Shown: in pieces, positions 34,481 to 63,998 of the stretch | How positions within the stretch are numbered: position 1 is the first letter of the stretch | How the letters are laid out: each line of letters starts with the position of its first letter | NCBI GenBank assembly: GCA_963775015.1 | Contig: CAVZHI010000021.1 | Location: 38,143-102,142 of the forward strand | From: an uncultured beta proteobacterium | GTDB taxonomy: Bacteria; Pseudomonadota; Gammaproteobacteria; Burkholderiales; Burkholderiaceae_C | DNA length: 64,000 bases | Direction: 5' to 3' | Made by a program: the position numbers and the translations under genes | The notes under the pieces: generated by a model | Told to the model about the DNA's origin: nothing | Database searches by the model: none | What the model saw: only the letters and a program-made list of their open reading frames with translations

Positions 34481-35771
34481 GTGCTTCGGGCGGCAACTGA
34501 AGTGATGCCATCACGGCCTATGCAACGTGTCGCCGAATTCGCCCGCACACCCGGCTCCAAGGCGCTGGCAGAAGCGCCGCAGCGCCAATCCATCGCACTC
34601 GTGATGATCGTTCGCGACGAGGCGCGCTGTATAGAAAGGTGCCTGAACAGCGTGCGGCCCTGGGTCGATCAGATGCTCGTTCTGGACACGGGCTCGCGCG
34701 ATGCGACGCCGCAGATTGCGCAGCGCTGCGGGGCGCTGGTCAAGCAGTTCTCCTGGGTCGACGACTTTTCGGCGGCGCGCAACGCCGCGCTCGCGTTCAC
34801 CGACGCGCCATGGCGGCTCGTGCTCGACGCCGACGAGTGGCTCGTCGGCGGCGGTGAAGCGCTTGCCGAGCTGCGTGGTGATCCTCCAGCGTTCCTCGGC
34901 CTGATCCAGGTGGCGAGCCGAATCGACCCAGGGCAAACCGACGCGCCGAGCTGGCTGCCGCGCTTGTTGCCCGCCGGCGTGCGCTACTCCGGTCGCATCC
35001 ACGAGCAGCCCGAATCAGCGCTGCCCCGGCGCCGCCTTCGGCTGCGCGTGGCGCACGACGGTTATCTCGCCGCACAGCGCGCCGCCAAGGCGGGGCGCAA
35101 TCGCAGGCTGCTCGAGATGGCGCTGGCGCAGGATCCGGACGACGCCTATTGGAACTACCAGCTCGGCAAGGACCTGGAGGTGAACTCGGAATTCGCGCAG
35201 GCAGAGCCCTGCTACGCCCGGGCCAACGCCGGCGCCGCAGCGGATGCCGCGTGGCGCCACGACCTCGTCGTGCGCTGGCTGTTCACGCTGAAGAAACTGG
35301 GCGCAGGTCGACGCTGCGCTGCGCATCGCCGGCGTCGAGCAGGCGTCTTGGGCGCGTTCGCCCGACTTCCACTTCACGCTCGGGGACGTGCTCTTGGAGT
35401 GCGCCATTCGGCGTCCGCAACAGGCGCCCGAGCTGTTGCCGAAGATCGAGGCGGCGTGGGAACGCGCGCTGCAGATCGGCGAGCGGCCCGACCTGCCCGA
35501 CACGGTGCGCGGCCGCGGCAGCTTCCTCGCCGCGCACAACCTGGCCGTGTTCCATGCAAGCCTCGGCCGCGCCGAAGAAGCGCGGCGCTGGGAGCAGCGG
35601 GCGCTGCGGCTGCGACAGGCGCCGACCTGGAACTCGAACTGGCGGGCTGACGCAGGCGTATTTCGCGCTTCAGCGCCTCTGCCTCGCCCTAGATTAGCCG
35701 AGCCGCCACTTCGCCGTGCCGACCCTGCTGCCCGTTCGCGGGGATCGCGCCTGCCCCGCCATGCCTCTTGA
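34481..35771 (+). pseudogene. GT2-family glycosyltransferase with C-terminal TPR-like region (GmaR-like architecture), frame disruption near 35303; both ends uncertain
   Basis: GT2 strings IALVMIVRDEARCIERCLNSV, VLDTGSRDAT and LVLDADEW (DxD). After ...WLFTLKKLG the sensible sequence continues in another frame (VDAALRIAGVEQASWARSPDFHFTLGDVLLECAIRRPQQAPELLPKIEAAWERAL...). Confidence 0.65.
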
Positions 35772-37865: not shown

Positions 37866-37892
37866 TCAAGTCGATTCGGCCCGCACCGATAT
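37866..37892 (+). promoter_or_regulatory. Candidate sigma-28 (FliA) promoter upstream of giant repeat gene 1
   Basis: TCAAG-N14-ACCGATAT (tcaagtcgattcggcccgcaccgatat), with canonical spacing and a 6/8 match in the -10. About 184 nt upstream of ATG 38076. Shares the extended TCAAGTCG with the fliD and fliC candidate sites. Confidence 0.4.
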
Positions 37893-38075: not shown

Positions 38076-41000
38076 ATGGCCACCATCATCCCGAATCTGT
38101 CGACCGCGATCATCGCGGGCCTGTCCACAGCCACCATTGCGGGCCTGTCGACGGAGGACTGGGCGGCGTTCAGTACGGCGCAGATCGCTGCACTGACGAC
38201 GGCGCAGGTCGCGGTCATCGGTACCGCAGCGGTGCCGGCGCTGAGCTCGGATCACATGGCGGCGTTCGAGACCGCCGACCTGCGCGCGATCAATTCTGCG
38301 GCGCTGCGCGCGTTGTCTAGCGACCAGCTCGGCGCGCTGTCGTCGAACCAGATCGGCGCGCTCACGACGGGCCAGGTCGCCGTCCTCACGACGACCCAGG
38401 TCACGCAACTCGCGAGCGATGACCTGAATGCCCTGACAACACAGCAGTTTGCAGCACTCACCAGCGCCCAGGCGATCGCCCTCACCACAGACCAGATCGC
38501 CGCCCTGGAAAGCGCTGACCTCCGGTCGCTGAGCAGCGCAGCGCTGCGTGGCTGGAGCACCGATCAGCTCGGAGCCTTGAGTTCAGACAACATGGCGGCG
38601 CTGACCACAAGCCAGGTCACGGCGCTCACAACAGCACAAATCGCCAGCCTGGCGAGCGACGACCTGAACGCATTTGGAACGACGCAATTCTCTGCGCTGA
38701 CGACAGCCCAAGTCGCGAGCCTGACGTCGAGCCAGATCAGCACCCTGGAGAGCGCGGATCTGCGGGCCTTGGGCACGGCGCAGTACGCCGCGCTGAACAG
38801 CGCCCAGGTGCAGGGCCTCGGAACGGATCAGATGGCGGCTCTGGAGAGCGCTGACCTGCGCTCGATCAACACCGCGGCATTGCGCAGCCTGAGCACCGAC
38901 CAACTCGCCGCCTTGAACAGCGACCAGATGGGCGCGCTGACGACGGGCCAGGTCGCAGCCCTGACCACAAGCCAGATCGCCGGTCTGGGAAGCGACGACC
39001 TGAACGCGCTGACCACAGCACAGTTTGCGTCCCTGACCAGCGCCCAAGCGATTGCGCTCACGACAGACCAGATCCCGAGCCTGGAGAGCTCCGACCTGCG
39101 AGCCCTGAGCACCGCAGCCCTGCGCGGCTGGAGCACGGAGCAGCTCGGCGCGCTGAGCTCAGACAACATGGCCGCGCTGACCACAAGCCAGGTCATCGCA
39201 CTGACCACGGCTCAAATCGCCAGCCTGGTGAGCGACGACCTGAACGCGTTCGGCACGACGCAGTTTGCTGCGCTGACGACAGCGCAAGTCGCGAGCCTGA
39301 CCTCGAGCCAGATCAGCACCCTGGAGAGCGCCGACCTGCGGGCCTTGGGCACGGCGCAATACGCCGCGCTGAGCAGCGCCCAGATGCAGGGCCTGTCGAG
39401 CGACCAGATGCTGGCTCTGGAGAGCGCTGACCTGCGCTCGATCAACACCGCAGCGCTGCGAAGCCTGACCACCGACCAACTCGCCGCCTTGAGCAGCGAC
39501 CAGATGGGCGCACTGACGACGGTGCCAGGTCGCCGCCCTGACGACAAGCCAGATCGCCGGTCTGGGCAGCGACGACCTGAACGCCCTGACGACGCAGCAG
39601 TTTGCATCGCTGACCAGCGCCCAGGCGATCGCGCTCACGACAGACCAGATCCCGAGCCTGGAGAGCGCTGACCTGCGAGCCCTGAGCACCGCAGCGCTGC
39701 GTGGCTGGAGCACGGACCAGCTCGGCGCGCTGAGCTCAGACAACATGGCGGCGCTGACGACGACGCAAGTCGCAGCCCTGACGACCGCTCAAATCGCCAG
39801 CCTGGTGAGCGACGACCTGAACGCATTCGGAACGACGCAATTCTCTGCGCTGACGACAGCCCAAGTCGCAAGCCTGACATCGAGCCAGATCAGCACGCTG
39901 GAGAGCGCCGACCTGCGGGCCTTGGGCACGGCGCAATACGCCGCGCTGAACAGCGCTCAGGTGCAGGGCCTGTCGAGCGACCAGATGGCTGCTCTGGAGA
40001 GCGCTGACCTGCGCTCGATCAACACCGCAGCGCTGCGAAGCCTCACCACCGACCAGCTCGCTGCACTGAGCAGCGACCAGATGGCCGCACTGACGACGGT
40101 GCAAGTCCCCGCCCTCACGACAAGCCAGATCGCCGGCCTGGGCAGCGACGACCTGAACGCCCTGACGACGCAGCAGTTTGCATCGCTCACCAGCGCCCAG
40201 GCGATCGCCCTCACCACAGACCAGATCGCCGCCCTGGAAAGCGCTGACCTGCGAGCCCTCAGCACCGCAGCGCTGCGCGGCTGGAGCACCGACCAGCTCG
40301 GAGCCCTGAGTTCAGACAACATGGCGGCGCTCACGACGACGCAAGTCGCAGCCCTCACGACCGCCCAGATCGCGAGCCTGGTGAGCGACGACCTGAACGC
40401 ATTTGGAACGACGCAATTCTCTGCGCTGACGACAGCCCAAGTCGCGAGCCTGACCTCGAGCCAGATCAGCACGCTGGAGAGCGCCGACCTGCGGGCCTTG
40501 GGCACGGCGCAATACGCCGCGCTGAACAGCGCCCAGGTGCAGGGTCTGGCAGCGACCAGATGGCGGCTCTGGAGGCTGCTGACCTGCGCTCGATCAACAC
40601 CGCAGCGCTGCGAAGCCTGACCACCGACCAGCTCGCCGCCCTGAGCAGCGACCAGATGGCCGCACTGACGACGGTGCAAGTCCCCGCCCTCACGACGAGC
40701 CAGATCGCCGGCCTGGGCAGCGACGACCTGAACGCCCTGACGACGCAGCAGTTTGCATCGCTCACCAGCGCCCAGGCGATCGCCCTCACCACAGACCAGA
40801 TCGCCGCCCTGGAAAGCGCTGACCTCCGGTCGCTGAGCAGCGCAGCGCTGCGTGGCTGGAGCACCGACCAGCTCGGAGCCCTGAGTTCAGACAACATGGC
40901 GGCGCTCACGACGACGCAAGTCGCAGCCCTCACGACCGCCCAGATCGCGAGCCTGGTGAGCGACGACCTGAACGCATTTGGAACGACGCAATTCTCCGCG

Positions 41001-44000
41001 TTGACGACAGCCCAAGTTGCAAGCCTGACCTCGAGCCAGATCAGCACCCTGGAGAGCGCCGACCTGCGGGCCTTGGGCACGGCGCAGTACGCCGCGCTGA
41101 ACAGCGCCCAGGTGCAGGGTCTCGGAACGGATCAGATGGCGGCGCTGGAGAGCGCTGACCTGCGCTCGATCAACACCGCGGCATTGCGCAGCCTGAGCAC
41201 CGACCAACTCGCCGCCTTGAACAGCGACCAGATGGGCGCGCTGACGACGGGCCAGGTCGCAGCCCTGACCACAAGCCAGATCGCCGGTCTGGGAAGCGAC
41301 GACCTGAACGCGCTGACCACAGCACAGTTTGCGTCCCTGACCAGCGCCCAGGCGATTGCGCTCACGACAGACCAGATCCCGAGCCTGGAGAGCTCCGACC
41401 TGCGAGCCCTGAGCACCGCAGCCCTGCGCGGCTGGAGCACGGAGCAGCTCGGCGCGCTGAGCTCAGACAACATGGCCGCGCTGACCACAAGCCAGGTCAT
41501 CGCACTGACCACGGCTCAAATCGCCAGCCTGGTGAGCGACGACCTGAACGCGTTCGGCACGACGCAGTTTGCTGCGCTGACGACAGCGCAAGTCGCGAGC
41601 CTGACGTCGAGCCAGATCAGCACCCTGGAGAGCGCCGACCTGCGGGCCTTGGGCACGGCGCAATACGCCGCGCTGAACAGCGCCCAGATGCAGGGCCTGT
41701 CGAGCGACCAGATGGCGGCTCTGGAGAGCGCTGACCTGCGCTCGATCAACACCGCAGCGCTGCGAAGCCTCACCACCGACCAGCTCGCTGCCCTGAGCAG
41801 CGACCAGATGGCCGCACTGACGACGGTGCAAGTCCCCGCCCTCACGACAAGCCAGATCGCCGGCCTGGGCAGCGACGACCTGAACGCCCTGACGACGCAG
41901 CAGTTTGCATCGCTCACCAGCGCCCAGGCGATCGCGCTCACAACCGACCAGATCCCGGCGCTGGAGAGCGCTGACCTGCGGCCGCTGAGCACCGCAGCGC
42001 TGCGCGGCTGGAGCACCGACCAGCTCGGAGCCTTGAGTTCAGACAACATGGCCGCGCTGACGACGACGCAAGTCGCGGCCCTCACGACCGCACAAATCGC
42101 CAGCCTGGTGAGCGACGACCTGAACGCGTTCGGAACGACGCAATTCTCTGCGCTGACCACGGCCCAGGTCGCGAGCCTGACCTCGAGCCAGATCAGCACC
42201 CTGGAGAGCGCCGACCTGCGGGCCTTGGGCACGGCGCAATACGCCGCGCTGAACAGCGCCCAGATGCAGGGCCTGTCGAGCGACCAGATGGCGGCTCTGG
42301 AGAGCGCTGACCTGCGCTCGATCAACACCGCAGCGCTGCGAAGCCTCACCACCGACCAGCTCGCCGCCCTGAGCAGCGACCAGATGGCCGCACTGACGAC
42401 GGTGCAAGTCCCCGCCCTCACGACGAGCCAGATCGCCGGCCTGGGCAGCGACGACCTGAACGCCCTGACGACGCAGCAGTTTGCATCGCTCACCAGCGCC
42501 CAGGCGATCGCCCTCACCACAGACCAGATCGCCGCCCTGGAAAGCGCTGACCTCCGGTCGCTGAGCAGCGCAGCGCTGCGTGGCTGGAGCACCGACCAGC
42601 TCGGCGCCTTGAGTTCAGACAACATGGCGGCGCTGACCACAAGCCAGGTCACGGCGCTCACGACCGCCCAGATCGCGAGCCTGGTGAGCGACGACCTGAA
42701 CGCATTTGGAACGACGCAATTCTCCGCGTTGACGACAGCCCAAGTTGCAAGCCTCACATCGAGCCAGATCAGCACCCTGGAGAGCGCCGACCTGCGGGCC
42801 TTGGGCACGGCGCAATACGCCGCGCTGAACAGCGCCCAGGTGCAGGGCCTCGGAACGGATCAGATGGCGGCTCTGGAGAGCGCTGACCTGCGCTCGATCA
42901 ACACCGCGGCACTGCGAAGCCTCACCACCGACCAGCTCGCTGCACTGAGCAGCGACCAGGTGGCCGCACTGACGACGGTGCAAGTCCCCGCCCTCACGAC
43001 AAGCCAGATCGCCGGCCTGGGCAGCGACGACCTGAACGCCCTGACGACGCAGCAGTTTGCATCGCTCACCAGCGCCCAGGCGATCGCCCTCACCACAGAC
43101 CAGATCGCCGCCCTGGAAAGCGCTGACCTCCGGTCGCTGAGCAGCGCAGCGCTGCGTGGCTGGAGCACCGACCAGCTCGGCGCCTTGAGTTCAGACAACA
43201 TGGCGGCGCTGACGACGAAGCCAGGTCGCGGCGCTCACGACCGCACAAATCGCCAGCCTGGTGAGCGACGACCTGAACGCGTTCGGAACGACGCAGTTCT
43301 CCGCGTTGACGACAGCCCAAGTTGCAAGCCTCACATCGAGCCAGATCAGCACCCTGGAGAGCGCCGACCTGCGGGCCTTGGGCACGGCCCAATACGCCGC
43401 GCTGAACAGCGCCCAGATGCAGGGCCTGTCGAGCGACCAGATGGCGGCCCTGGAGAGCTGCTGACCTGCGCTCGATCAACACCGCAGCGCTGCGAAGCCT
43501 CACCACCGACCAGCTCGCTGCCCTGAGCAGCGACCAGATGGCCGCACTGACGACGGTGCAAGTCCCCGCCCTCACGACGAGCCAGATCGCCGGCCTGGGC
43601 AGCGACGACCTGAACGCCCTGACGACGCAGCAGTTTGCATCGCTCACCAGCGCCCAGGCGATCGCGCTCACAACCGACCAGATCCCGGCGCTGGAGAGCG
43701 CTGACCTGCGAGCCCTCAGCACCGCAGCGCTGCGCGGCTGGAGCACCGACCAGCTCGGAGCCCTGAGTTCAGACAACATGGCCGCGCTGACAACGACGCA
43801 GGTCGCGGCCCTCACGACCGCCCAAATCGCCAGCCTGGTGAGCGACGACCTGAACGCGTTCGGAACGACGCAATTCTCTGCGCTGACGACGGCCCAGGTC
43901 GCGAGCCTGACCTCGAGCCAGATCAGCACCCTGGAGAGCGTCGACCTGCGGGCCTTGGGCACGGCGCAATACGCCGCGCTGAACAGCGCCCAGGTGCAGG

Positions 44001-45835
44001 GCCTCGGAACGGATCAGATGGCGGCTCTGGAGAGCGCTGACCTGCGCTCGATCAACACCGCAGCGCTGCGAAGCCTCACCACCGACCAGCTCGCTGCACT
44101 GAGCAGCGACCAGATGGCCGCACTGACGACGGTGCAAGTCCCCGCCCTCACGACGAGCCAGATCGCCGGCCTGGGCAGCGACGACCTGAACGCCCTGACG
44201 ACGCAGCAGTTTGCATCGCTCACCAGCGCCCAGGCGATCGCCCTCACAACCGACCAGATCCCGCCCTGGAAAGCGCTGACCTGCGAGCCGCTCAGCACGC
44301 AGCGCTGCGCGGCTGGAGCACCGACCAGCTCGGAGCCTTGAGTTCAGACAACATGGCGCGCGCTGACCACGAGCCAGGTCGCGGCGCTCACGACCGCACA
44401 AATCGCCAGCCTGGCGAGCGACGACCTGAACGCGTTCGGAACGACGCAATTCTCTGCGCTGACGACAGCCCAAGTCGCGAGCCTGACCTCGAGCCAGATC
44501 AGCACGCTGGACAGCGCCGACCTGACCGCACTCACGACAGCTCAATACGCCGCGTTCTCGACCGCCCAGGTGATCGCGTTCACGACGGATCAGATCTCGC
44601 TCATCGAAACCGCCGATCTGCGCGCGCTCACGTCGAGCTCGCTGCGCGCCCTCACCGACGCGCAATTGGCCGAATTGACGACGACGCAGATCACCTCGCT
44701 CGGCGGCCAGGTCGTGAACCTGACGACGTCGCAGCTCGCCGGCCTCGCGTCGGATGACCTGAACGCGATGACCCAGGCGCAGTTCTCGCTCCTCACGAGC
44801 GCGCAGATTTCGCACCTGACGACATCGCAGGTGTCGACGCTGGAGACCGCCGACCTGCGCGCCATCAGCACGGCCAGCCTGCAGGCGATGACGACGGACC
44901 AGATCGTCGCGATCACGACGGACCAGTTCCAGGCCTTGAGCTCGGCGCAGATCGTCGCCTTCACGACGGCACACGCCGCGGCGTTGACGACAGACCAGAT
45001 CGTCGCCTTCACGACGGACCAGATCGTCGCGCTGCAAACGCAGGACATCGCCGCGATGTCGATGACGCAGGTGTCGGCGTTCGAAGGCGCGGACATCTCG
45101 GTCATGACGGCGTCGCAGATCGACGCCATCTTCGCCGCGTCGCCGATCATGCTCGACCTGGACGGCCACGGCGTGAACACGACCGCCGCGGCGCAGGGCG
45201 TGAACTTCGACCTGAACGCGACCGGCAGTGCGCACAAGGTCGGCTGGGCGTCAGCCGGCGACGGCCTGCTCGTGATGGACCGCAACGGCGACGGCAAGAT
45301 TGGCGACGGCAGTGAGCTGTTCGGCACGGCGACACGCCTGGCCGACGGCACGCGCGCCGGCAACGGCTACGAAGCGATGGCGCAGCACGACAGCAACCAC
45401 GACGGCGTGCTCTCCGGCGCCGACGTCGACTTCCAGAAGCTGCAGCTGTGGGTCGACGCGAACGTCGACGGCAAGACGGATGCGGGCGAGCTGCACAGCC
45501 TGGCCGAGTTCGGCGTCGCGTCTCTGGACCTGAAGGGTCTGGCCGGAACGCAGGTGGACAACGGCAATTTGCTGGGTCTGACGTCGACCTACACGACGAC
45601 CGACGGCGCACAACACGCCACGGCCGACGTCTGGTTCGCGAAGGACACGCCGGCGGTGCCACCGAAGCTCGACGAGTTGCTCGCGGCGCCGTCCGCCGAG
45701 TTGCTTGCTGCAGCGCCGGTGGGCCACGCCGCGCCCACACCGGTGGCCGCGAGCCATGTTCCCACGGCGGCGCCGGCAGGAATCGACCGGAACCTGTTGC
45801 CGATCGACGAGAACAAGCACCAACCGCTGATCTGA
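38076..45835 (+). CDS. Giant octapeptide-repeat protein 1 (about 2,585 codons if repaired); interrupted as sequenced by six 1-nt indels (about 39526, 40548, 43215, 43455, 44262, 44358)
   Basis: AAGGA RBS 7 nt before ATG 38076 and no signal peptide. About 290 consecutive 8-aa units L-[ST]-[ST]-x-Q-[IVLMF]-x-[AS] with no register break. Pieces are ORFs 38022..39671, 39745..40620, 40560..43526, 43261..43464, 43538..44341 and 44570..45835, and each junction is repaired by a single-base change relative to sister repeats. The C-terminal Ca-loop module ends ...GIDRNLLPIDENKHQPLI. Confidence 0.8.
38097..45140 (+). repeat. Hierarchical coding tandem repeat: 24-nt unit, 576-nt (24-unit) higher-order repeat present about 11 times, with a further 2,304-nt recurrence
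   Basis: The anchor gacaacatggc recurs at about 38586, 39162, 39738, 40314, 40890, 41466, 42042, 42618, 43194, 43771 and 44347 (576-nt steps, +1 after indels). Variant marker gaacggatcag lies at 38821 and 41125 (2,304 nt apart). Confidence 0.9.
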
Positions 45836-45841
45836 GCGAAA

Positions 45842-45874: not shown

Positions 45875-45913
45875 CGCACTGACATGAGTCCCTAGCGCCG
45901 TCCCGGTGGGCCG

Positions 45914-55258: not shown

Positions 55259-55544
55259 GGAGGGCCTTCCTGCGGCGCGTGGTGATGGAGTGATGGGTTG
55301 ATCGATTCAGCGCCTTGGCATTCTGGTGCGCGAGGTGGACCCGCTTGGCACCGATAAGCAGCGTGTTCGGGGCTCAGTTGTGCATGGGTGTGGGGCAGCG
55401 CAGCGCGGCCGCGCTTCGAATTGGCGCCGAATCGCTGCGCTGATGCGCAGACCCAGGCGCGACGGCGCTGCCCACAATGGCGACGCGTCCGGCTGTGACA
55501 CCGGCGCAGCTGCGATTCCTGTGTCAACAGACCCTCGTGAGCCG

Positions 55545-57389: not shown

Positions 57390-57576
57390 GTGGAAGGGGG
57401 CGGGTCTTGCCTGTTGTGCCCTCTCCCTGCGCCGAGGACAGATTCGTCGACGAGAGGGGGCCGGAGGCAAAACCTGACCTCCTTTCCCTGACCCCTTTCC
57501 CGCTTCGGCTGCGACCCAATTTGCTCGCGCGCGGGTCTGAAAGAGGGGCGCCATTCAAAGGACCAGGGAATCCATC

Positions 57577-57720
57577 ATGAAGAGCGCGCTCTTTGTCGAT
57601 TTCGACAATGTCTTTTCGCAACTGCGCCAACTGCAGCCCGACGCTGCCGAGCGTTTCGCGCGTCACCCGTCGGCATGGATCGCGTGGCTCATCGACACGC
57701 TGGCCATGCCTGAGCCGCAC
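57577..57720 (+). pseudogene. 5' fragment of a NYN/LabA-like (PIN-fold) gene, truncated after about 47 codons
   Basis: MKSALFVDFDNVFSQLRQLQPDAAERFARHPSAWIAWLIDTLAMPEP looks like the N-terminus of NYN-domain proteins (xALFxDxDN). Beyond about 57720 the ORF is merely antisense to the toxin gene. Confidence 0.35.
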
Positions 57721-58239
57721 GAAGGCGCCGCCGAAGATCGCGCGCGCGGCCGCGAGGCCGGCGGGCAGGCTGACGCCTGCGTCGATCATCGCCGCAAGGT
57801 CCCGGTAGTCCTTGGCCTCCGCCCTTTGAAGAATCACCTTCAGCTTGGTGGCCATCAAGTCGTTGAGCGACGCGACCTGCGCGACACCATCGTCGGTGAG
57901 TCCCGGCTCGCCGACTCGACCGAATCCGATCGTGCCGAAGAATGAAACCTTCACGTGTCCGGATTCGCTGCGCGGAACAAGAACCGTCAAGGTATTTCGC
58001 TCGTCCTGCAAGACTGTCGCCTCGGCCATGAAAGGGAACGCTGCGCGAATCGAATCGCGATCGAGCGGCGGGTCCGAGAAGAAGTCGAAATCGACCGAAA
58101 CGCGATGCCCGAGGCGCAGTGCGATCGCGGTGCCGCCGTACAAGACGAAGCCGAGGTCGGCGGCCGATTTGAGTTCCGGCCAGAGCCGCTGTTGCGCGGA
58201 TGGCAGGATCTGCAAGCAGGGCCTGAACACGCGCGTCAT
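57721..58239 (-). pseudogene. AbiEii/AbiGii-family nucleotidyltransferase toxin, 3'-truncated
   Basis: MTRVFRPCLQILPSAQQRLWPELK...FVLYGGTAIALRLGHRVSVDFDFFSD (NTase GG...DxD), ...LMATKLKVILQRAEAKDYRDLAAMIDAG. Family-like sequence stops at ...AARAIFGGAF, about 35-40 aa short of typical family members. The rest of ORF 57133..58482 is low-complexity read-through. Confidence 0.6.
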
Positions 58240-58645: not shown

Positions 58646-60010
58646 TCACTCCAGCCAAGCCGATACCCCCAACCCCAGCGAGCGCAGCAACGCCGACGCC
58701 TGCTGGCCGTCGTGCAAGGCGTTGATGTAGGCGACCCTGAGGTTGTAGTGTTCGCTCTCGGCTGACATCACGTCAAAGAGCGAGCGCCGCGCCAGCTGCT
58801 GCCATTGCTGGAGCGTGAAGTTGCGCACCTGGTTGCTGTCGCGAACGATGGCGCTCGTCTGGCGTGCGCGGTCGAAACTCGACGCCGCCTGTTCGTGGAC
58901 TTCGGCGATGCGTGACCTTCGTGCCTCCAACGCGTCCTTGCTTTGCAGGCGCGCCGCTTCGGCGCGCTTCTTCGCCGCGTCGATGCCGTAGTCCGCCCCC
59001 TGGTTGATGAGCGGCATGCTGAAGCTGATGCCGGCGAGCACGGTTCCGGGGTGGTTCCCGCCGCCTGCCTTGGAGCCCGTGAGCACCCAGTTGAGCTGCG
59101 GTTTCTGCGCCGCGACGACGGCGCGCGAATAACTCTCGAGCGCCTTCGCCTGCGCCTCGAGCTGGGCGATTTCGCTCGCTCGCGCCGCTTGCGCTTCCAT
59201 GTCGGGCAGCGGCGGAACGTCGAGCAGTAACGCCGTCATGCCCTCGCTGCTGGGCATGCCGTCGCCGATGAAGCGCTTCAACCTTGTTTCCGCCTGGCGC
59301 AATTGCGACACCGACTGCGACTGTGCCAGATCGGCCTGCGCAAGCGTCTTGCGCGCCTGCACGAGCTCGCTGGTGCGGCCGCGGTCCGCCTTGACGATCT
59401 GGTCCAGCACTTCGACGAGGCAAGCCATCTTGCGCGAAAACTGCTGATAAATCCGCGCCTGCTGGCGATGCCGATTGCGCTCGAGCGCGAGCGACACGGT
59501 CTGGAACGCGACCTGTTCCTGTGCCGTGAGCTGCCCCTGCCGCGCCGCCTCCGACAGGCTCGCGCGCCAGCCGGTGATGGAGGCGATGCGGCCCGAGTCG
59601 TAGAGCGGCGCGCTGACGTTGATGCCGATCTGCGCCTGGCCACCCGATTGCGAAACGACGTCTTTGGCCGACGCCGCGGCATAGCCCGTCGTCGCGGTGA
59701 CGGTCGCCTGCACGAGGCGTGCCGCGCGCGCTTCTTCGACTTCACTCGCGGCAGCTTCGGCGAGCAGCTTCGCCGCGCCGACGGCGTTGCTGCGCCGGAT
59801 CGCCTCTTGCACCATCGCTTGCAGCGTCAGGCGCGGCGCGTTCGCGTCGCTCGGAGCGGCGCCCGGTGTGCCGGCTGTGGCAGGGAGGGCGACGTCGGGG
59901 GCGTCTTCGTCGACGCAGCGTTGCGCCTGGGCGGGGAGAGCGAACAGCAGCAGCACCAGCGCCGCGGTGCAGCGGCGCGTGCGCGAGGAGGGCAGGGAAG
60001 GAACGGTCAT
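58646..60010 (-). CDS. TolC-family outer-membrane factor of the type I secretion system
   Basis: Start at MTVPSLPSSRTRRCTAALVLLLFALPAQA (60010). Two tandem helical-hairpin halves. Last gene of the ABC-MFP-OMP string. Confidence 0.85.
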   Translation of the reverse strand: MTVPSLPSSRTRRCTAALVLLLFALPAQAQRCVDEDAPDVALPATAGTPGAAPSDANAPRLTLQAMVQEAIRRSNAVGAAKLLAEAAASEVEEARAARLVQATVTATTGYAAASAKDVVSQSGGQAQIGINVSAPLYDSGRIASITGWRASLSEAARQGQLTAQEQVAFQTVSLALERNRHRQQARIYQQFSRKMACLVEVLDQIVKADRGRTSELVQARKTLAQADLAQSQSVSQLRQAETRLKRFIGDGMPSSEGMTALLLDVPPLPDMEAQAARASEIAQLEAQAKALESYSRAVVAAQKPQLNWVLTGSKAGGGNHPGTVLAGISFSMPLINQGADYGIDAAKKRAEAARLQSKDALEARRSRIAEVHEQAASSFDRARQTSAIVRDSNQVRNFTLQQWQQLARRSLFDVMSAESEHYNLRVAYINALHDGQQASALLRSLGLGVSAWLE

Positions 60011-60193
60011 GGTCAGGGTCGGATCGCCGGCGCAAGACATGCCGCGCCAAGCCGTTTTTGAGAGCCGCAACCTTAACCGCGAGGTCTCACCAGCTTGCCG
60101 AGGGGCGATGCAGAAGGGCCTGAATTCGGGCCGGTCGCGTGGCAAAGTGCCGAAATCAGGGCTTCAGTTTGTGATGCTGCAGCCGAGCGAGTT

Positions 60194-60274
60194 TGTCATC
60201 CCGGCGAAAGCCGGGATCCAGTGCTGGAGTCCCGTGCCCTGGCCCGCAGTGGATCCCGGCTTTCGCCGGGATGA
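60194..60274. repeat. REP-like inverted pair (60194-60220; 60248-60274) in the MFP-OMP spacer
   Basis: gtcatcccggcgaaagccgggatccag ... gtggatcccggctttcgccgggatgac. Confidence 0.9.
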
Positions 60275-60404
60275 CGGCCTTGGCGACCGGCGCAAGGCTG
60301 TCCGCAGGGACGGCCTTGCGTCCAGCCTCCTCCGGCCTGGCCGCTCGTATGGCGGCCAGGCCTTCGCCAGCCGTGAAGCGCCTTCCGGCGCTTCACGCGC
60401 GGGC

Positions 60405-61637
60405 TCAGCCATCCTGAAACGCCTCCTTGGACTTGAGCATCGGCCGCAGCAAATAGCTCATCACGCTGCGCTCGCCGGTCCGCACTTCGACCGAGCCCGT
60501 CATGCCGGGCATCACGGGCAGCGGCTTGCCGTGCGCCATGAGCGTCGACGAGTCGGTGCGAACGAGGGCGCGGTAGTAGGTGGCGTCGGCGGCGCTGCCG
60601 CGTTCCGGGTCGCCGAGCGCGTCCGGGCTGATCGTCTCGATGCGGCCTTTCAGTCCGCCGTACATCGCGTAGTCGTACGCAGAGAGTTTGATCTCGACAC
60701 TCTGGCCGACGCGAACGAAGCCGATCGACGCGGGTTTGATCCGCGCCTCGATGAGCACCCGGTTGCCGAGCGGCACGATTTCCATCACCGGCGCGCCCGG
60801 CGCAATGACGCCGCCGATCGTCGCGATGCGGATGTTCTTCACCAGGCCGCGCACGGGGGACTTGAGCACGGTGCGGCGCAGCACGTCGGCGCGGCCGCTG
60901 ATCTGCTCGTTGACTTGCGCGAGCTCGGTCTGCACGCGAACCAGGTCGCTGCTCGCGTCCTGGCGAAAGCGGTTCACGCGCTCGGCGACCTGGAGCCGCA
61001 GGTCGTTCACCTGGCGCCGCAGGCGGATCACTTCGACGTTCGACATCAAGCCCTTGTCGGCCATGTTCTGCGCCAGGTCGAGCTCGCGCTGCAGCAGCGC
61101 AACGCTCAACTGCGTCGACGCGACCGCGTCCTGCAAGGAATGGCGTCGCGCCTGGTACGACGCGGTTTCGCCTTGCACGATGTCGGGGAGCGCCGCCACT
61201 TCGGGCGGGAACTTGAGCGCTCGCCCCGACGCTTCGGCGGTGAGGCGCGCGATCGTCGCCTGCAATGCGAGGCGTTTCGCCTGGCCTTCGTTCTGCTGCG
61301 CCTCGAAGCGCGTCGGGTCGATCAGCGCGAGGTCCTGGCCGGCGTCGACCTGCATGCCCTCGCGCACGAGCAGTTCGCGCAGGATGCCGCCCTCCAGGCT
61401 CGCGATCACTTGCTCGCGGCCGTCGGGAATGACGCGGGCGTCGGCGCGCGTGATGTCGTCGACGCGCGTCAGGCTCGCCCACGCGAGCGCTGCTCCGAGA
61501 ACGAGCGCGAGCAGGATCAGCGCCCAGCTCGTGCCCGGCGTTGCGTCGAGCACTTGCGCGGCGCGCAGCGGCGACAGGTAAGGCGCATCGCTGCGCAACG
61601 GTGCGCGTTCGGCATTGGACTTGTCGCGCCAGAACAT
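60405..61637 (-). CDS. HlyD-family type I secretion membrane-fusion protein
   Basis: Start at MFWRDKSNAERAPL (61637). A single N-terminal TM helix (WALILLALVLGAALAWASL), long coiled-coil segments, and a C-terminal beta-barrel region (...GMTGSVEVRTGERSVMSYLLRP). Confidence 0.85.
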   Translation of the reverse strand: MFWRDKSNAERAPLRSDAPYLSPLRAAQVLDATPGTSWALILLALVLGAALAWASLTRVDDITRADARVIPDGREQVIASLEGGILRELLVREGMQVDAGQDLALIDPTRFEAQQNEGQAKRLALQATIARLTAEASGRALKFPPEVAALPDIVQGETASYQARRHSLQDAVASTQLSVALLQRELDLAQNMADKGLMSNVEVIRLRRQVNDLRLQVAERVNRFRQDASSDLVRVQTELAQVNEQISGRADVLRRTVLKSPVRGLVKNIRIATIGGVIAPGAPVMEIVPLGNRVLIEARIKPASIGFVRVGQSVEIKLSAYDYAMYGGLKGRIETISPDALGDPERGSAADATYYRALVRTDSSTLMAHGKPLPVMPGMTGSVEVRTGERSVMSYLLRPMLKSKEAFQDG

Positions 61638-61688
61638 GGTCAGGACCTCGGCCCTTGAAGGCGATGCCGACCCTGACCCTCGAACCCC

Positions 61689-61860
61689 GTCATCCCGGCG
61701 AGTCCCGTCATCCCAGCAAGTCCCGTCATCCCGGCGAAGGCCGGGATCCACTGCCCGCCCTGGCGCAGTTTCCCAGCAGTGGATCCCGGCGTTCGCCGGG
61801 ATGACGGGGAACGGCGCGATGATGGGGAATGGCGCGATGACGGGGAATGGCGCGTTGACG
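61689..61860. repeat. REP-like inverted pair (61725-61751; 61779-61805) flanked by two 18-nt triplicated micro-repeats
   Basis: gtcatcccggcgagtccc / gtcatcccagcaagtccc / gtcatcccggcg... on the left. ggggaaYggcgcgatgaY three times on the right (61806-61860). Confidence 0.85.
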
Positions 61861-61916
61861 GCGGATACCGGTACGAAACTGGGGCCGGGATGAGAAGCGA
61901 GTCGAGCATGGCGTCA

Positions 61917-63998
61917 TCAAGCGGCTGCGTGCACAGGGACTTGTGCCGGCGCAGGCGCGCCGGGCCGGGGGGGTGCGATCGGTGGTGCGGTCGCTGGCGC
62001 GACGGGCGGCGCGGCGCCCGACAGCGCAGCGAGCACCAGGCTCTTCGGCCCGTCCAACGCCACCTTGCCGGCGTCGATGACGATCACGCGTTGCACGAGT
62101 TCGAGCACGGCAGGGCGGTGCGTCACGACGATCAGCGTGCGCTCGCCCACTGCCTCTTTCAACTGGCGCAGGAACTGGACTTCGCTTTGTGCGTCCATCG
62201 AGCTCGTCGGCTCGTCCATGAGCAGGATCTGCGGCCGCGTCACGAGGCAGCGCGCGAGCGCGACGAGCTGGCGCTGCCCGCCCGAGAGCATGCCGCCCAT
62301 TTCGCCCACGCTCAGGTCCCAGCCCCGCGGGTGCGCCGCGACCACGCGGTCCAGACCGGTCAGGCGCGCCACATGCGCGAGCTGCGTCGCGTCGACATTC
62401 GCGCGGCCCATCAGCACGTTGTCGCGCAGGCTGCCGTTGAACAGGCGCGGCTCCTGGGAGACGAAACCGACTCGGGCGCGAAAGTCCGCCGGGTCGATCT
62501 GCCGCAGGTCGATGCCGTCGGCCTGCACCATGCCTTCGGTGGGTTGGTAGAGCGATCCAAGCAGCCGCAACACGGTCGACTTGCCGCTGCCGATGCGGCC
62601 GAGGATCGCGACGCGCTCGCCCGGCGTGAACGCGAGGTTGACGTTTTTCAGGACGCGTGGCGACACGTCCGCGCCGACGTTCGGGTAGGCAAAACTCACG
62701 TCGTGCAAGGCGATCCGTCCGGTGATCTTGTGCTGCGCGACGTAAGCCTTGCCGGGTTCGCGCTCGGTCGGCAGATTCATCAAATGGTCGAGCGCGAGCA
62801 TCGCCGCGCGTGCGCCCTGGTAACGCGTCGCGAGGCTCACGACGCTGCCCAGGGGCGCGACGGCGCGGCCCGCGAACATCACGGCGCCGATCAGCGCGCC
62901 GGCGCTCACCGCGCCATCGCGGATCAGGTACACGCCCCAGACCAGCATCACGATCGTCACGAGCTGCTGCGCCGCTGCCGACAGGTTGTTCGTCCAGCTC
63001 GAGAGGAATCGCGCGCGCAGCGCAGTTTCGGCGGCCGCCGCGGTCGCGTTTTCGAAGCGGAACAGGAAGCTGCCTTGCGCGCCTGCGGCCTTCAGGTCTT
63101 CGAGTCCTTCGACGGCTTCGACGAGAACGCCTTGCAGGTCCGCCTGCTGCGCCATGTTCGCGCTCATCGTGCGGCGCAGGCGACCCTGGATCACTGCCGC
63201 CATGCCCAGGATGAGCGGGATCGCGATCACCATCACCCAACCGAGCGGCCCGGCGATGAGAAAAATCATCACGACGAAGAGCAGCACGAACGGCAAGTCG
63301 CTGATCGCCGAGAGCGTGGCCGAGGCGAAGAAGTCGCGCACGGTCTCGACTTGCGCCAGGTGGTGCGCGTAGGAACCGGCCGACGCCGGGCGGTGCTCCA
63401 TGCGCACGCCCAGGGTCTGGCGGAACATCAGCGAACCGATGATGAGGTCGGCCTTGCGCCCGGCGAGATCAATCAGGTAGCTGCGCAACTGGCGCGCGAG
63501 CAGGTCGAAGAGCAGGGCGAGCAGCGCGCCGCTCGCGAGCGCCCAGAGCGTGACGAATGCCTGGTGCGGAATCACCTTGTCGAACACGACCGAGGTGACG
63601 AGTCCGATGACGAGCATCAGCACGTTGCTGATGAACGCTGCGAGCAAGGCCGAGCGGTAATACGGAACGAAACGGCGCAGCGTTCCCCACAGCCAGTGGC
63701 TGCCGGGGTCGCGCAAGCCGGCGTCGCCAAAGGCCCCAGAAGCCGGCGCGATGAGAGGCGTGGCGACGAAGGCGAAGCCGGTGTACTCGGCCTGCAGCTC
63801 AGATTCATGCGCCTGCACGGCGACGTAGTGCTCGCCGGGCATCATCACTTCGTAGTGATCCGGCGCGCCGTCCAGGCGCCGCACGACGATGCACGCGTCG
63901 CCGTTTTTCAGCAGCAACACGGCGGGCAGCAGCAAGGAATGGATTTCGCCGATGCGGCGCTGGATCAGCCCGGCGTTGAAGCCGGCCTCGCGCAGCAC
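61917..63998 (-). CDS. Type I secretion ABC transporter (permease + ATPase) with N-terminal C39-peptidase-like domain; 5' end lies beyond the window
   Basis: 693 aa visible. The C39-like tail is ...LLPAVLLLKNGDACIVVRRLD. It has a six-TM core. Walker A GRIGSGKST, signature LSGGQRQL, Walker B LLMDEPTS. Confidence 0.85.
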   Translation of the reverse strand: MLREAGFNAGLIQRRIGEIHSLLLPAVLLLKNGDACIVVRRLDGAPDHYEVMMPGEHYVAVQAHESELQAEYTGFAFVATPLIAPASGAFGDAGLRDPGSHWLWGTLRRFVPYYRSALLAAFISNVLMLVIGLVTSVVFDKVIPHQAFVTLWALASGALLALLFDLLARQLRSYLIDLAGRKADLIIGSLMFRQTLGVRMEHRPASAGSYAHHLAQVETVRDFFASATLSAISDLPFVLLFVVMIFLIAGPLGWVMVIAIPLILGMAAVIQGRLRRTMSANMAQQADLQGVLVEAVEGLEDLKAAGAQGSFLFRFENATAAAAETALRARFLSSWTNNLSAAAQQLVTIVMLVWGVYLIRDGAVSAGALIGAVMFAGRAVAPLGSVVSLATRYQGARAAMLALDHLMNLPTEREPGKAYVAQHKITGRIALHDVSFAYPNVGADVSPRVLKNVNLAFTPGERVAILGRIGSGKSTVLRLLGSLYQPTEGMVQADGIDLRQIDPADFRARVGFVSQEPRLFNGSLRDNVLMGRANVDATQLAHVARLTGLDRVVAAHPRGWDLSVGEMGGMLSGGQRQLVALARCLVTRPQILLMDEPTSSMDAQSEVQFLRQLKEAVGERTLIVVTHRPAVLELVQRVIVIDAGKVALDGPKSLVLAALSGAAPPVAPATAPPIAPPRPGAPAPAQVPVHAAA

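What the first reader, a model, noticed from the sequence alone, without database searches (positions are those of the whole stretch)
34481..63998. Composite locus: giant Ser/Thr-rich T1SS-type substrates embedded in a flagellin-linked glycosylation/methylation island bracketed by two OGT-like GT41 enzymes
Seen, in gene order: fliC-fliC, GT2-TPR, GT41-TPR, giant 1, giant 2, FkbM methyltransferase, SAM methyltransferase, fucosyltransferase-like, DUF616-like, AsnB-like, GT41-TPR, (TA remnant), TolC-HlyD-ABC. Established: GT41 enzymes act in the cytoplasm. One bacterial branch (HMW1C/NGT) glycosylates giant adhesins before export. Listeria GmaR (GT2+TPR) O-GlcNAcylates flagellin. T1SS exports unfolded cytoplasmic substrates. 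V. cholerae FrhA is a flagellar-regulon T1SS adhesin. Inference: the tailoring enzymes may decorate the octad proteins as well as, or instead of, flagellin. Those proteins would then leave through the nearby T1SS as a flagellar-regulon-coupled glycosylated fibre or adhesin system. The canonical octad unit contains no N-x-S/T sequon (the Asn contexts are NAF, NSA, NTA, NAL and NMA), so any glycan would have to be O-linked.
Basis: inference. Interest (0 to 1): 0.8.

Follow-up and report, generated by a model that had tools for sequence, protein, structure and literature searches.

The report
Flagellar-regulon glycosylated giant fibre export locus
Next to its flagellin genes this bacterium carries two giant repeat proteins, their own export pump and sugar-adding enzymes; related genomes show the proteins share the flagellar on-switch and are probably sugar-coated before export, which gives a bacterial OGT-type enzyme a candidate target.

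Summary
The "fucosyltransferase-like" call has no profile support. In this error-prone assembly, single-base indels break both giants, the GT2 gene and a PilZ gene.

The giants are ALTTAQ-repeat proteins (PF20080). They have no signal peptide and no RTX repeats. Each ends in a FrpC-type self-processing module (SPM) whose scissile Asp-Pro is replaced by Ser/Thr-Pro.

Comparative genomics splits the island into two modules.
- **Module A:** fliC-fliC plus GT2 and GT41a. This recurs next to flagellin in genomes without giants.
- **Module B:** ALTTAQ-SPM giants plus a GT41 and an LssB-type T1SS. This recurs without flagellin: 0 of 79 loci have flagellin, and 44 of the 68 loci with ≥3 kb downstream carry glycosylation genes.

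GT41b orthologs sit directly next to the T1SS in 18 of 18 informative loci.

A sigma-28-type promoter like those before fliC, fliD and fliS lies before giant 1. It also precedes 24 of 31 ALTTAQ genes elsewhere, where about 0.6 would be expected by chance.

It is not shown biochemically, and the "single island" view needs refining.

The parts
30195..32166 (-). fliS (30195-30632) and fliD (30721-32166). These late flagellar genes give the context and serve as positive controls for the sigma-28-type motif (hits at 30696 and 32219).
   Evidence: Pfam FliD_N/FliD_C; tblastn with L082 FliS/FliD; motif scan
32391..34286 (-). Two short flagellin genes: fliC2 32391-33197 and fliC1 33483-34286.
   Evidence: Pfam Flagellin_N + Flagellin_C; 94-99% identical to the L082 flagellins
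34366..34393 (-). Sigma-28-type promoter motif TCAAGTCAAGTCGGACCGACACCGATAA upstream of fliC1.
34481..35771 (+). GT2 glycosyltransferase (a TPR is detected only faintly in relatives). It has a frame break at ~35302-35307. It is the flagellin-linked partner of GT41a.
   Evidence: Pfam Glycos_transf_2; frame break; conserved next to fliC in L082, L084 and L085
35716..37713 (+). GT41a: a TPR + GT41 (OGT-like) glycosyltransferase of the flagellin-linked clade.
   Evidence: Pfam Glyco_transf_41, E 2e-81; orthologs sit next to fliC with or without giants; clade a in the tree
37866..37892 (+). Sigma-28-type promoter motif TCAAGTCGATTCGGCCCGCACCGATAT, about 185 nt upstream of the giant 1 ATG.
   Evidence: identical placement in L082 and L083; the same motif class precedes 24 of 31 ALTTAQ genes
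38076..45835 (+). Giant 1 (~2585 aa). It has a conserved N-terminal cap (MATIIPNLST...EDWAAF) and about 300 ALTTAQ octads arranged as ~11 copies of a 576-bp super-repeat. It ends in an SPM-like domain (45143-45646) and an acidic tail ending ...PLI. Six single-base indels break it in this assembly.
45914..49298 (+). Giant 2 (~1127 aa): ALTTAQ repeats, an SPM-like domain (48612-49112) and the same C-terminal tail. It has one single-base insertion at ~47090.
49445..50197 (-). FkbM-family methyltransferase.
   Evidence: Pfam Methyltransf_21
50229..50903 (-). SAM-dependent methyltransferase.
   Evidence: Pfam Methyltransf_11/25; coordinates
51066..51926 (-). It carries an HIRKTDF motif only.
   Evidence: No Pfam, NCBIfam or PDB hit
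51923..53347 (-). TOD1/MUCI70 (DUF616) glycosyltransferase-like domain protein. It is read in frame with AsnB through a REP-like element.
   Evidence: Pfam PF04765; a 49%-identical homolog lies directly downstream of the ALTTAQ gene in L054
53470..55258 (-). AsnB-like glutamine-dependent amidotransferase.
   Evidence: Pfam Asn_synthase + GATase_7; TIGR01536, 416 bits
55326..57389 (+). GT41b: a TPR + GT41 of the T1SS-linked clade, with full-length similarity to Xanthomonas XcOGT.
   Evidence: Pfam; PDB 2JLB, E 5e-84; orthologs adjacent to the T1SS in 18 of 18 informative loci; clade b
57560..58239 (-). AbiEii toxin-like remnant. It is an insertion that is absent from the close relatives L088 and L089.
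   Evidence: Pfam AbiEii
58646..63998 (-). Type I secretion operon: ABC (61917-63998, 5' end off the window), then HlyD (60405-61751), then a TolC-like OMP (58646-60145).
   Evidence: TIGR03375, 760 bits (cut-off 693); TIGR01843, 323 bits (cut-off 209); Pfam OEP

Best explanation
Two glycoprotein-export modules of the flagellar regulon lie side by side, between fliC and, by analogy with relatives, flhDC-motAB.

**Module A.** This holds the two short flagellins and their dedicated cytoplasmic glycosyltransferases, GT2 and TPR-GT41a.

**Module B.** This makes a giant surface or extracellular fibre. Its proposed steps are:
1. A sigma-28-type promoter drives giant 1, and probably giant 2 as well, which lies 78 nt downstream.
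2. The products have no signal peptide. They consist of a conserved 45-aa N-cap, hundreds of 8-residue ALTTAQ units predicted to form a rod of short helices, a Ca2+-binding SPM-like domain, and an acidic tail ending in PLI.
3. TPR-GT41b is encoded with the T1SS in relatives. While the protein is still unfolded in the low-Ca2+ cytoplasm, GT41b is inferred to O-glycosylate Ser/Thr of the octads.
4. The AsnB, DUF616 and methyltransferase operon is inferred to build or trim the glycan.
5. The LssB-type ABC, HlyD and TolC then export the protein C-terminus first.
6. Outside the cell, the SPM-like domain folds on Ca2+. It lacks the scissile Asp, so it more likely acts as a folding nucleus or ratchet than as a clip-and-link device.

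**Shown here:** gene content, homologies, synteny statistics and promoter motifs.
**Inferred:** glycosylation of the giants, the export route, FliA dependence and the role of the SPM.
For: **Domain identities**
- ALTTAQ_rpt, GT41, the T1SS components and the flagellar genes are identified.
- SPM homology: PDB 6SJW, E 8e-36. The AF2 model has pLDDT 81 and Foldseek TM 0.81 to 6SJW.
- The SPM literature states the module is exclusive to T1SS-secreted RTX proteins (PMC7078468).

**The giants as a family**
- They have no signal peptide and share a conserved N-cap.
- The C-terminal tail ending ...PLI is conserved in nearly all of the 26 aligned homologs (three end ...PLL, one each ...PLV...PIL...HLLL), and [S/T]-P is present in all 26.

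**Synteny**
- Among 79 ALTTAQ-SPM loci, 45 have glycosylation genes, 12 a GT41, 15 T1SS genes, 10 both GT41 and T1SS, and 0 a flagellin.
- The block [ALTTAQ]..[GT41][TolC][HlyD][ABC] recurs, for example in L009, L025, L034, L062 and L065.
- GT41b orthologs lie next to ABC-HlyD-TolC in 18 of 18 loci with enough flank.
- GT41 sequences fall into three clades: flagellin-linked (a), T1SS-linked (b) and ALTTAQ-adjacent (c).
- The GT2 and GT41a pair is conserved beside fliC without giants in L084 and L085.

**Regulation**
- Four of the five sigma-28 motif hits in the window precede fliS, fliD, fliC1 and giant 1.
- 24 of 31 ALTTAQ 5' regions carry the motif, against ~0.6 expected (binomial P ~5e-35).
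- flhDC-motAB-cheYZ lies adjacent to GT41b-T1SS in L089, L093, L095, L099 and L103.

**Intactness**
- An intact 2587-aa ortholog is present in L082.
Against: - No experimental data exist for any step.
- In the four GT41b metagenome loci with full 10-kb flanks, no ALTTAQ or SPM gene lies within reach. The GT41b-T1SS operon could therefore serve another substrate.
- Only 12 to 15 of the 79 ALTTAQ loci show a GT41 or T1SS within 10 kb.
- The sugar cassettes next to ALTTAQ genes (DegT, NeuB, FdtA and others) are of the kinds also used for flagellin glycans. They could be shared with flagellin or dedicated to it.
- The giants carry no RTX repeats, and NCBIfam models for T1SS C-terminal target domains do not hit them.
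- In this assembly the giants are frame-broken. If those breaks are real, the system is dead in this strain.
- The sigma-28 assignment rests on a consensus motif and on internal positive controls, not on mapped transcription start sites.
Confidence: 0.6

Rival explanations
1. This is a flagellin-only glycosylation island. Every glycosyltransferase and tailoring enzyme here serves flagellin. The ALTTAQ giants are unmodified, co-regulated neighbours that use the T1SS.
For: - GT2 and GT41a are conserved beside fliC, and in relatives a deoxy-sugar operon follows them.
- The cassette gene types (DegT, NeuB, FdtA, methyltransferases) are typical of flagellin glycosylation islands.
- Both gene sets carry sigma-28-type promoters.
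Against: - GT41b orthologs are operon partners of the T1SS, not of flagellin.
- 0 of 79 ALTTAQ loci contain flagellin, yet 45 contain glycosylation genes, mostly immediately downstream.
- The GT41 clades b and c are distinct from the flagellin-linked clade a.
Confidence: 0.18
2. GT41b modifies something other than the giants. Candidates are a T1SS component, another T1SS cargo or a regulatory protein (an O-GlcNAc-like switch). On this view its proximity to the ALTTAQ genes is circumstantial.
For: - Four GT41b-T1SS loci with full 10-kb flanks have no ALTTAQ or SPM gene nearby.
- The natural substrates of the closest solved homolog, XcOGT, are unknown (own knowledge).
Against: - ALTTAQ-SPM genes are the only recurrent candidate cargo next to GT41+T1SS blocks (10 loci).
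- Contigs tend to break at these repeat genes, so absence within a flank is weak evidence.
- The giants are 18-25% Ser/Thr.
Confidence: 0.12
3. The system is decaying in this strain. The frameshifts in both giants and in GT2 are real, so the locus is a pseudogenised remnant.
For: - At least 8 single-base frame breaks lie within about 15 kb.
- The deposited record itself calls only a 421-aa fragment.
Against: - Each repeat indel sits where paralogous copies carry two variants, and it looks like a hybrid of the two.
- Non-repeat genes such as PilZ, GT2 and the transporter genes are also split. This pattern points to assembly error.
- Removing the indels restores a seamless octad frame.
- The ortholog in L082 is intact.
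Confidence: 0.12
4. The giants are exported by the flagellar type III apparatus as late substrates. The adjacent T1SS serves other cargo.
For: - They carry a sigma-28-type promoter like the late flagellar substrates.
- They have no Sec signal peptide.
- Their N-terminus is conserved.
Against: - The SPM module is known only in T1SS cargo (PMC7078468).
- The extreme C-terminus is conserved, which is typical of T1SS signals.
- A T1SS lies adjacent in 15 loci.
- A length of 2000 to 3400 aa is far beyond known flagellar export substrates (own knowledge).
Confidence: 0.03

Closest known systems
Neisseria meningitidis FrpC and Actinobacillus ApxIVA (SPM-containing RTX proteins; PDB 6SJW; PMC7078468)
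   Same: - The C-terminal ~170-aa domain is a clear homolog (44-46% identity, TM 0.81).
- It starts at the same Pro as in FrpC.
- The four EF-hand-like Ca2+ sites, W451, L475, G477 and D579 are conserved.
- The proteins are large, lack a signal peptide and are encoded near a T1SS.
   Different: - The scissile Asp414 is Ser or Thr in all 26 homologs, and D478 is never Asp.
- The aspartic-anhydride clip-and-link chemistry is therefore unlikely.
- There is no RTX nonapeptide block.
- The SPM sits at the C-terminus rather than internally.
- The passenger is an ALTTAQ helical repeat.
Vibrio cholerae FrhA
   Same: It is a giant T1SS cargo whose expression is tied to the flagellar hierarchy. That matches the sigma-28-type promoter before ALTTAQ genes.
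   Different: FrhA is an RTX/cadherin-repeat adhesin. It is not known to be glycosylated and has no operon-encoded GT41. FliA dependence is predicted here, not measured.
Haemophilus HMW1 adhesin with the HMW1C N-glycosyltransferase (GT41)
   Same: A cytoplasmic GT41 enzyme decorates a giant secreted adhesin before export.
   Different: - HMW1C lacks TPRs and N-glycosylates N-x-S/T sequons.
- GT41a and GT41b score 24 and 18 bits against the NGT model, whose cut-off is 1000.
- The octads contain no sequons.
- Export here would be by T1SS, not two-partner secretion.
Caulobacter FlmG, Listeria GmaR and flagellin glycosylation islands (PMC7591256)
   Same: These are modular TPR + glycosyltransferase enzymes encoded beside flagellin genes. 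They act in the cytoplasm before export, and the TPR part selects the substrate. The GT2 and GT41a pair fits this pattern by synteny.
   Different: - Membership of GT41a in the FlmG family was not tested.
- The window lacks the sugar-nucleotide operon that follows GT41a in the relatives L084 and L085.
- A second TPR-GT41 is coupled to a T1SS rather than to flagellin.
Xanthomonas campestris XcOGT (XCC0866; PDB 2JLB/2VSY)
   Same: GT41b aligns over its full length (E 5e-84), covering both the TPR and the GT41 catalytic lobes.
   Different: No physiological substrate or secretion-system partner is known for XcOGT (own knowledge).
Designed 8-mer alpha-helical screw HeliScrew4 (PDB 9ZEM; bioRxiv 10.64898/2025.12.04.691947)
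   Same: Both have an 8-residue period and sequence similarity (E 1e-14). Both have Ser/Thr/Asp N-caps and short helices. AF2 predicts 21 helices of 5-6 residues in 24 octads (pLDDT 91).
   Different: - The fold match was not confirmed by Foldseek (no significant PDB hit).
- The natural repeats use Thr or Ser where the designs use Pro.
- The natural proteins run to 250-400 units.

Membership tests
Pfam ALTTAQ_rpt (PF20080) | HMM match above the gathering score, in tandem copies | tested here: met
   Scores of 483-892 bits against a cut-off of 26.4, with 16-31 stretches per fragment
FrpC-type self-processing module (clip-and-link) | Sequence and fold homology to the SPM, including the EF-hand-like Ca2+ sites | tested here: met
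   6SJW E 8e-36 and 2.7e-32. Foldseek TM 0.81. The LDLDGxG, DRNGDGxI, DSNxDG and DANxDGxTDxGE motifs are conserved.
FrpC-type self-processing module (clip-and-link) | Scissile Asp-Pro bond (D414-P415), plus D478 and D579 of the transient fifth Ca2+ site | tested here: not met
   Pro is invariant, but the preceding residue is Ser or Thr in 26 of 26 homologs. The D478 equivalent is never Asp. The D579 equivalent is conserved.
FrpC-type self-processing module (clip-and-link) | Ca2+-dependent autocleavage and isopeptide cross-linking | not testable with these tools
   Needs purified protein with and without Ca2+
RTX proteins | Tandem GGxGxDxUx nonapeptide repeats upstream of the C-terminal signal | tested here: not met
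   0 GGxGxD motifs in either giant; no Pfam or NCBIfam RTX hit
Type I secretion system | ABC exporter and HlyD-family adaptor of T1SS subfamilies | tested here: met
   TIGR03375 LssB, 760 bits (cut-off 693); TIGR01843, 323 bits (cut-off 209)
Type I secretion system | TolC-family outer-membrane component | tested here: inconclusive
   Pfam OEP scores 83 bits (cut-off 22), but TIGR01844 scores only 48.8 bits (cut-off 225). The gene is syntenic with ABC and HlyD in relatives.
Type I secretion substrate | No N-terminal signal peptide, a C-terminal secretion signal, and export dependent on the T1SS | tested here: inconclusive
   No signal peptide by inspection. The tail ending ...PLI is conserved in nearly all of 26 homologs. 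A T1SS lies within 10 kb in 15 of 79 loci. Export itself is not testable here.
GT41 (OGT-like) glycosyltransferases | Glyco_transf_41 catalytic domain preceded by TPRs | tested here: met
   E 2e-81 and 1e-76, plus TPR hits. GT41b matches XcOGT at E 5e-84 over its full length. Donor sugar and acceptor are not testable here.
HMW1C-like N-glycosyltransferase | Match to the NGT model, and N-x-S/T acceptor sequons in the cargo | tested here: not met
   NF049992 scores 23.7 and 17.9 bits (cut-off 1000). There are no sequons in the canonical octads.
Flagellin glycosylation island | Glycosyltransferase genes syntenic with flagellin genes across genomes | tested here: met
   Met for GT2 and GT41a only (L082, L084, L085, L086). 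For the giants, GT41b and the T1SS the test fails: 0 of 79 and 0 of 26 loci have flagellin.
Sigma-28 (FliA) late flagellar regulon | Promoter of the TAAA/TCAA-N15-GCCGATAA class upstream of the gene | tested here: met
   The motif at 37866-37892 scores 11 of 11, the same class as before fliC1, fliD and fliS in the window. It precedes 24 of 31 ALTTAQ genes against ~0.6 expected. FliA-dependent transcription is not testable here.
FlmG-class flagellin glycosyltransferases | Homology to Caulobacter FlmG and a pseudaminic-acid donor pathway | not tested
Only the architecture (TPR + GT-B) and the synteny resemble it.

The most novel reading that the evidence does not exclude
ALTTAQ-SPM giants are a widespread, undescribed class of sigma-28-controlled surface fibres in the Rubrivivax-Roseateles-Leptothrix group of Burkholderiales.
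- They would be natural alpha-helical 'screw' rods, 2000-3400 residues long.
- A dedicated OGT-type (GT41) enzyme, encoded in the same operon as their type I exporter, would O-glycosylate them in the cytoplasm.
- Strain-variable glycan cassettes would diversify the coat.
- A Ser/Thr-Pro variant of the FrpC self-processing module would cap them. This variant either has lost cleavage or performs a different Ca2+-triggered chemistry.

If correct, this would supply a physiological substrate class for bacterial OGT homologs. It would also be, as far as I can tell, the first GT41-coupled T1SS.
Probability: 0.4. Interest if true: 0.85.

Novelty: new variant of a known kind. Interest (0 to 1): 0.72.

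Why it matters
- **A candidate substrate for bacterial OGT homologs.** Enzymes such as XcOGT have solved structures but almost no known substrates. Here a TPR-GT41 is an operon partner of a T1SS and a recurrent neighbour of one cargo family. That yields a directly testable enzyme-substrate pair.
- **Glycosylation before type I export.** Glycosylation of T1SS cargo before export is scarcely documented.
- **A larger flagellar regulon.** The sigma-28 link suggests that many freshwater and soil Burkholderiales deploy a giant glycosylated fibre together with flagella. This bears on attachment, on phage or grazer recognition, and on biofilm entry.
- **Protein engineering.** The Ser/Thr-Pro SPM variant and the natural 8-residue helical repeat are relevant to NeissLock chemistry and to 'helical screw' designs, which were thought to be almost absent from nature.

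No paper in the searchable library mentions the ALTTAQ repeat. None combines T1SS, GT41 and glycosylation.

Tried and rejected
- **RTX classification:** rejected, since there are no nonapeptide repeats.
- **HMW1C/NGT-type N-glycosylation:** rejected. The model scores are far below the cut-off and the octads contain no sequons.
- **One coherent flagellin island:** rejected. Two independently conserved modules fit better.
- **'Fucosyltransferase-like' ORF:** no Pfam, NCBIfam or PDB support.
- **Fold-level match of the repeat to 9ZEM:** Foldseek found nothing significant. The best hits were mesothelin, with TM about 0.3-0.4. Only the sequence similarity stands.
- **Exact look-ups to name the source organism:** these failed. 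P0001 carries no name, the window's GT41 sequences are not in the collection, and the look-up of encoding contigs found nothing for P0001 or P0074.
- **The genome scan:** it did not return the window's own genome. The best hit was 64% identical.
- **Literature searches:** searches for ALTTAQ and for T1SS+GT41 returned nothing. The Leptothrix sheath or nanofibril idea was looked at briefly and dropped for lack of any link.
- **Sigma-70 promoter and terminator scans, 45.7-58.7 kb:** no signal above the shuffled controls.
- **Sigma-28 motifs before GT41b-T1SS operons:** inconsistent. They appear only where the operon follows motAB-cheYZ. I therefore do not claim FliA control of the exporter.

Full report
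**1. Observation**

The window is about 67% G+C, so genes were called by third-position G+C and annotated with Pfam and NCBIfam.
- fliD, fliC and fliC on the minus strand
- GT2 (34481-35771) and a TPR-GT41, here GT41a (35716-37713), running divergently from them
- two long repeat genes (38076-45835 and 45914-49298)
- a minus-strand operon: AsnB, TOD1_MUCI70/DUF616, an unassigned ORF, a SAM methyltransferase and an FkbM methyltransferase (55258 down to 49445)
- a second TPR-GT41, here GT41b (55326-57389)
- an AbiEii remnant
- a minus-strand TolC-like, HlyD and ABC operon that runs off the window

The ABC protein passes the curated cut-off of the LssB T1SS subfamily (760 against 693 bits). HlyD passes TIGR01843.

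**2. The giants are broken in this assembly but almost certainly intact in nature**

Giant 1 consists of about 11 copies of a 576-bp unit (24 octads) that are about 90% identical. Its reading frame changes six times at single-base indels.

Several observations point to assembly error rather than real pseudogenisation:
- Each indel lies where paralogous copies carry two alternative variants, and it reads like a hybrid of the two.
- Removing the indels restores a seamless octad frame of about 2585 aa.
- Giant 2 has one such insertion. The non-repeat GT2 and PilZ genes are also frame-broken, and upstream transporter genes are split.
- A relative with 84%-identical GT41a (L082, a 1.85-Mb contig) has the same synteny with giant 1 as one 2587-aa ORF and the same N-terminus.

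**3. What the giants are**

The octads are the Pfam family ALTTAQ_rpt (E down to 1e-276). No paper in the library mentions this family.

AF2 on 24 octads gives pLDDT 91, with 21 helices of 5-6 residues at an 8-residue period. phmmer links the repeat to the designed 8-mer 'helical screw' HeliScrew4 (9ZEM, E 1e-14; preprint read). Foldseek gave no significant PDB match.

- 6SJW matches at E 8e-36 and 3e-32.
- The model has pLDDT 81 and TM 0.81 to 6SJW.
- SPMs are reported only in T1SS-secreted RTX proteins (PMC7078468).
- The alignment starts at the Pro equivalent to FrpC P415. The preceding residue is Ser or Thr, never Asp, in all 26 aligned homologs.
- The D478 equivalent is never Asp. The Ca2+ loops, W451, L475, G477 and D579 are kept.

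The proteins have no RTX nonapeptides, no Cys and 18-25% Ser+Thr. They also have no signal peptide, a conserved N-terminal cap (MASxIxxLxT...EDWAAF) and a conserved acidic tail ending ...PLI.

**4. Comparative genomics of the giants**

A scan of one genome per species with the SPM-tail alignment returned 79 loci. They come from Rhizobacter, Ideonella, Roseateles/Paucibacter, Aquabacterium, Rubrivivax, Leptothrix, Sphaerotilus and relatives. The evidence is tblastn with the window's proteins, ORF clustering, and Pfam on cluster representatives.

| Feature within 10 kb of the ALTTAQ-SPM gene | Loci |
|---|---|
| Flagellin or FliD | 0 of 79 |
| At least one recognisable glycosylation gene | 45 of 79 |
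| The same, among loci with ≥3 kb downstream | 44 of 68 |
| GT41 | 12 |
| T1SS components | 15 |
| GT41 and T1SS together | 10 |

The glycosylation genes include DegT, GT2, GT4, a 4,6-dehydratase, a cytidylyltransferase, FdtA/acetyltransferase, an amidotransferase-like cluster with no Pfam hit, NeuB, DUF5672, a GT4-methyltransferase fusion and DUF616.

The block [ALTTAQ-SPM]...[GT41][TolC][HlyD][ABC] recurs. The cassettes differ even between close relatives, as in L088 compared with the window.

**5. Comparative genomics of the two GT41s**

*GT41a.* It has more than 2000 close homologs. All three independent contexts examined place it, with the GT2 gene, beside fliC-fliC. One context includes the giants (L082). 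The other two (L084, and L085 with its near-duplicate L086) lack giants and have a deoxy-amino-sugar operon followed by flhDC.

*GT41b.* Orthologs from metagenomes (63-83% identity) lie directly next to the LssB-ABC, HlyD and TolC genes in all 18 loci with enough flank. Most form an operon in the order GT41b, ABC, HlyD, TolC.

A neighbour-joining tree of the catalytic halves gives three clades: flagellin-linked (a), T1SS-linked (b) and ALTTAQ-adjacent (c).

The window is therefore a juxtaposition of two modules. One is a flagellin module: fliC, GT2 and GT41a. The other is an ALTTAQ, GT41b and T1SS module. The tailoring operon between them cannot be assigned firmly. Its DUF616 gene has a homolog directly downstream of the ALTTAQ gene in L054.

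**6. Link to the flagellar regulon**

A motif of the sigma-28 class (TCAAG-N14-16-xCCGATA[A/T]) gives five hits in the 64-kb window. Four of them precede fliS, fliD, fliC1 and giant 1. The giant 1 hit is at 37866-37892, about 185 nt before the ATG. L082 and L083 have the same element in the same place.

Among the 31 ALTTAQ genes whose 5' end is present in the genome loci, 24 have such a motif around the ORF start. The background is 0.022 hits per kb per strand, which predicts about 0.6 loci (binomial P ~5e-35).

In L089, the closest relative of the right-hand side, the T1SS is followed by flhDC and motAB. In L093, L095, L099 and L103 the GT41b-T1SS operon follows motAB-cheYZ, or the cheYZ part of it where the contig is short; flhDC precedes motAB in L095 and L099. 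The motif does not consistently precede the exporter operon itself.

**7. Mechanism**

The best reading (confidence ~0.6) is as follows:
- Late in flagellar assembly, FliA drives transcription of the giants.
- The TPR domain of GT41b recognises the unfolded octad array, and the enzyme O-glycosylates Ser/Thr in the cytoplasm.
- The lineage-specific cassette supplies or trims the sugar. Here that cassette is AsnB, DUF616 and two methyltransferases.
- The T1SS exports the protein C-terminus first.
- Extracellular Ca2+ folds the SPM-like cap and the helical rod.

Gene content, homology, synteny and motifs are shown here. The modification, the export route, FliA dependence and the SPM role are inferred.

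The rival readings are: flagellin-only glycosylation; another GT41b target; real pseudogenisation; and flagellar type III export.

**8. Comparison with known systems and novelty**

The system works like a combination of four known systems:
- FrhA, a flagellar-regulon T1SS adhesin
- HMW1/HMW1C, a cytoplasmic GT41 acting on a giant adhesin
- FlmG or GmaR with flagellin, a TPR-directed cytoplasmic O-glycosylation
- FrpC, the SPM

It fails defining tests for three families. It is not an RTX protein, because it has no nonapeptides. It is not clip-and-link, because it has no Asp-Pro. It is not NGT-type, because the model scores are far below cut-off and the octads have no sequons.

I found no literature on the ALTTAQ repeat or on a GT41-coupled T1SS. 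I class it as a new variant of a known kind, with interest 0.72.

Noticed in passing
window 15725-20743, 29065-29797, 34481-35771, 38076-49298: The assembly looks error-prone. Single-base frame breaks occur in the PilZ/YcgR-like gene (~29180), in GT2 (~35302-35307), in giant 1 (six) and in giant 2 (one). SBP_bac_5 and BPD_transp_2 transporter genes are split into adjacent ORFs. Any pseudogene call in this window should be treated with caution.
   Followed up: partly
window ~53380-53466 and ~50945-51062 (minus strand): REP-like intergenic elements are translated in frame as 'IPAKAGIH / IPAHAGIH ... RRDD'. They join AsnB to the DUF616 ORF, and the unassigned ORF to the SAM-methyltransferase ORF, without stop codons. 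The 1111-aa and 863-aa ORFs are therefore probably artificial fusions. The same peptide signature appears in the stop-to-stop extension upstream of HlyD.
   Followed up: partly
window 57560-58239 (-): An AbiEii-type toxin remnant, with no antitoxin, sits between GT41b and the TolC-like gene. It is absent from the close relatives L088 and L089, so it is a lineage-specific insertion.
   Followed up: partly
loci L004-L079, first ALTTAQ ORF; window 38076-38210: The ALTTAQ giants share a conserved ~45-residue N-terminal cap across genera: MASxIxxL(S/T)TxQIAxLSTx(S/T)IAxL(T/S)(T/S)EDWAAF(S/T)T. Its role is unknown. It could be a solenoid cap, a retention element or a glycosyltransferase docking site.
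   Followed up: no
window 40560-41135 (model mfeee2c37dd7e): A 24-octad array is predicted with high confidence (pLDDT 91) as a rod of 5-6-residue helices. It resembles in sequence the designed HeliScrew4 (9ZEM). The preprint that describes that design says such helical screws are almost absent from nature. ALTTAQ proteins of 2000-3400 residues would be abundant natural examples.
   Followed up: partly
window 27981-29042 (+): A TylF-family O-methyltransferase lies just upstream of the PilZ-fliT-fliS-fliD-fliC cluster, and this placement is conserved in L082. It may belong to the flagellin glycan pathway.
   Followed up: no
window 45836-45913: A 78-nt gap separates giant 1 from giant 2. It contains a GC-rich hairpin (GCCGGGCTGCC...GGCAGCCCGGC) with no T-run and has no sigma-28 motif. 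This suggests co-transcription with possible attenuation.
   Followed up: no
L001 15832-21053; L097 7240-9595; L070 ~20933: Some ALTTAQ or GT41b-T1SS loci carry a nonulosonic-acid (pseudaminic or legionaminic type) pathway, with NeuB, CTP_transf_3, DegT and a PseB-like gene. The putative fibre glycan would then be sialic-acid-like in those lineages and different in the window.
   Followed up: partly
L108 15379-16764 (-): A Ser/Thr-rich PEP-CTERM-type protein gene is inserted between HlyD and TolC of a GT41b-T1SS operon in one metagenome locus.
   Followed up: no
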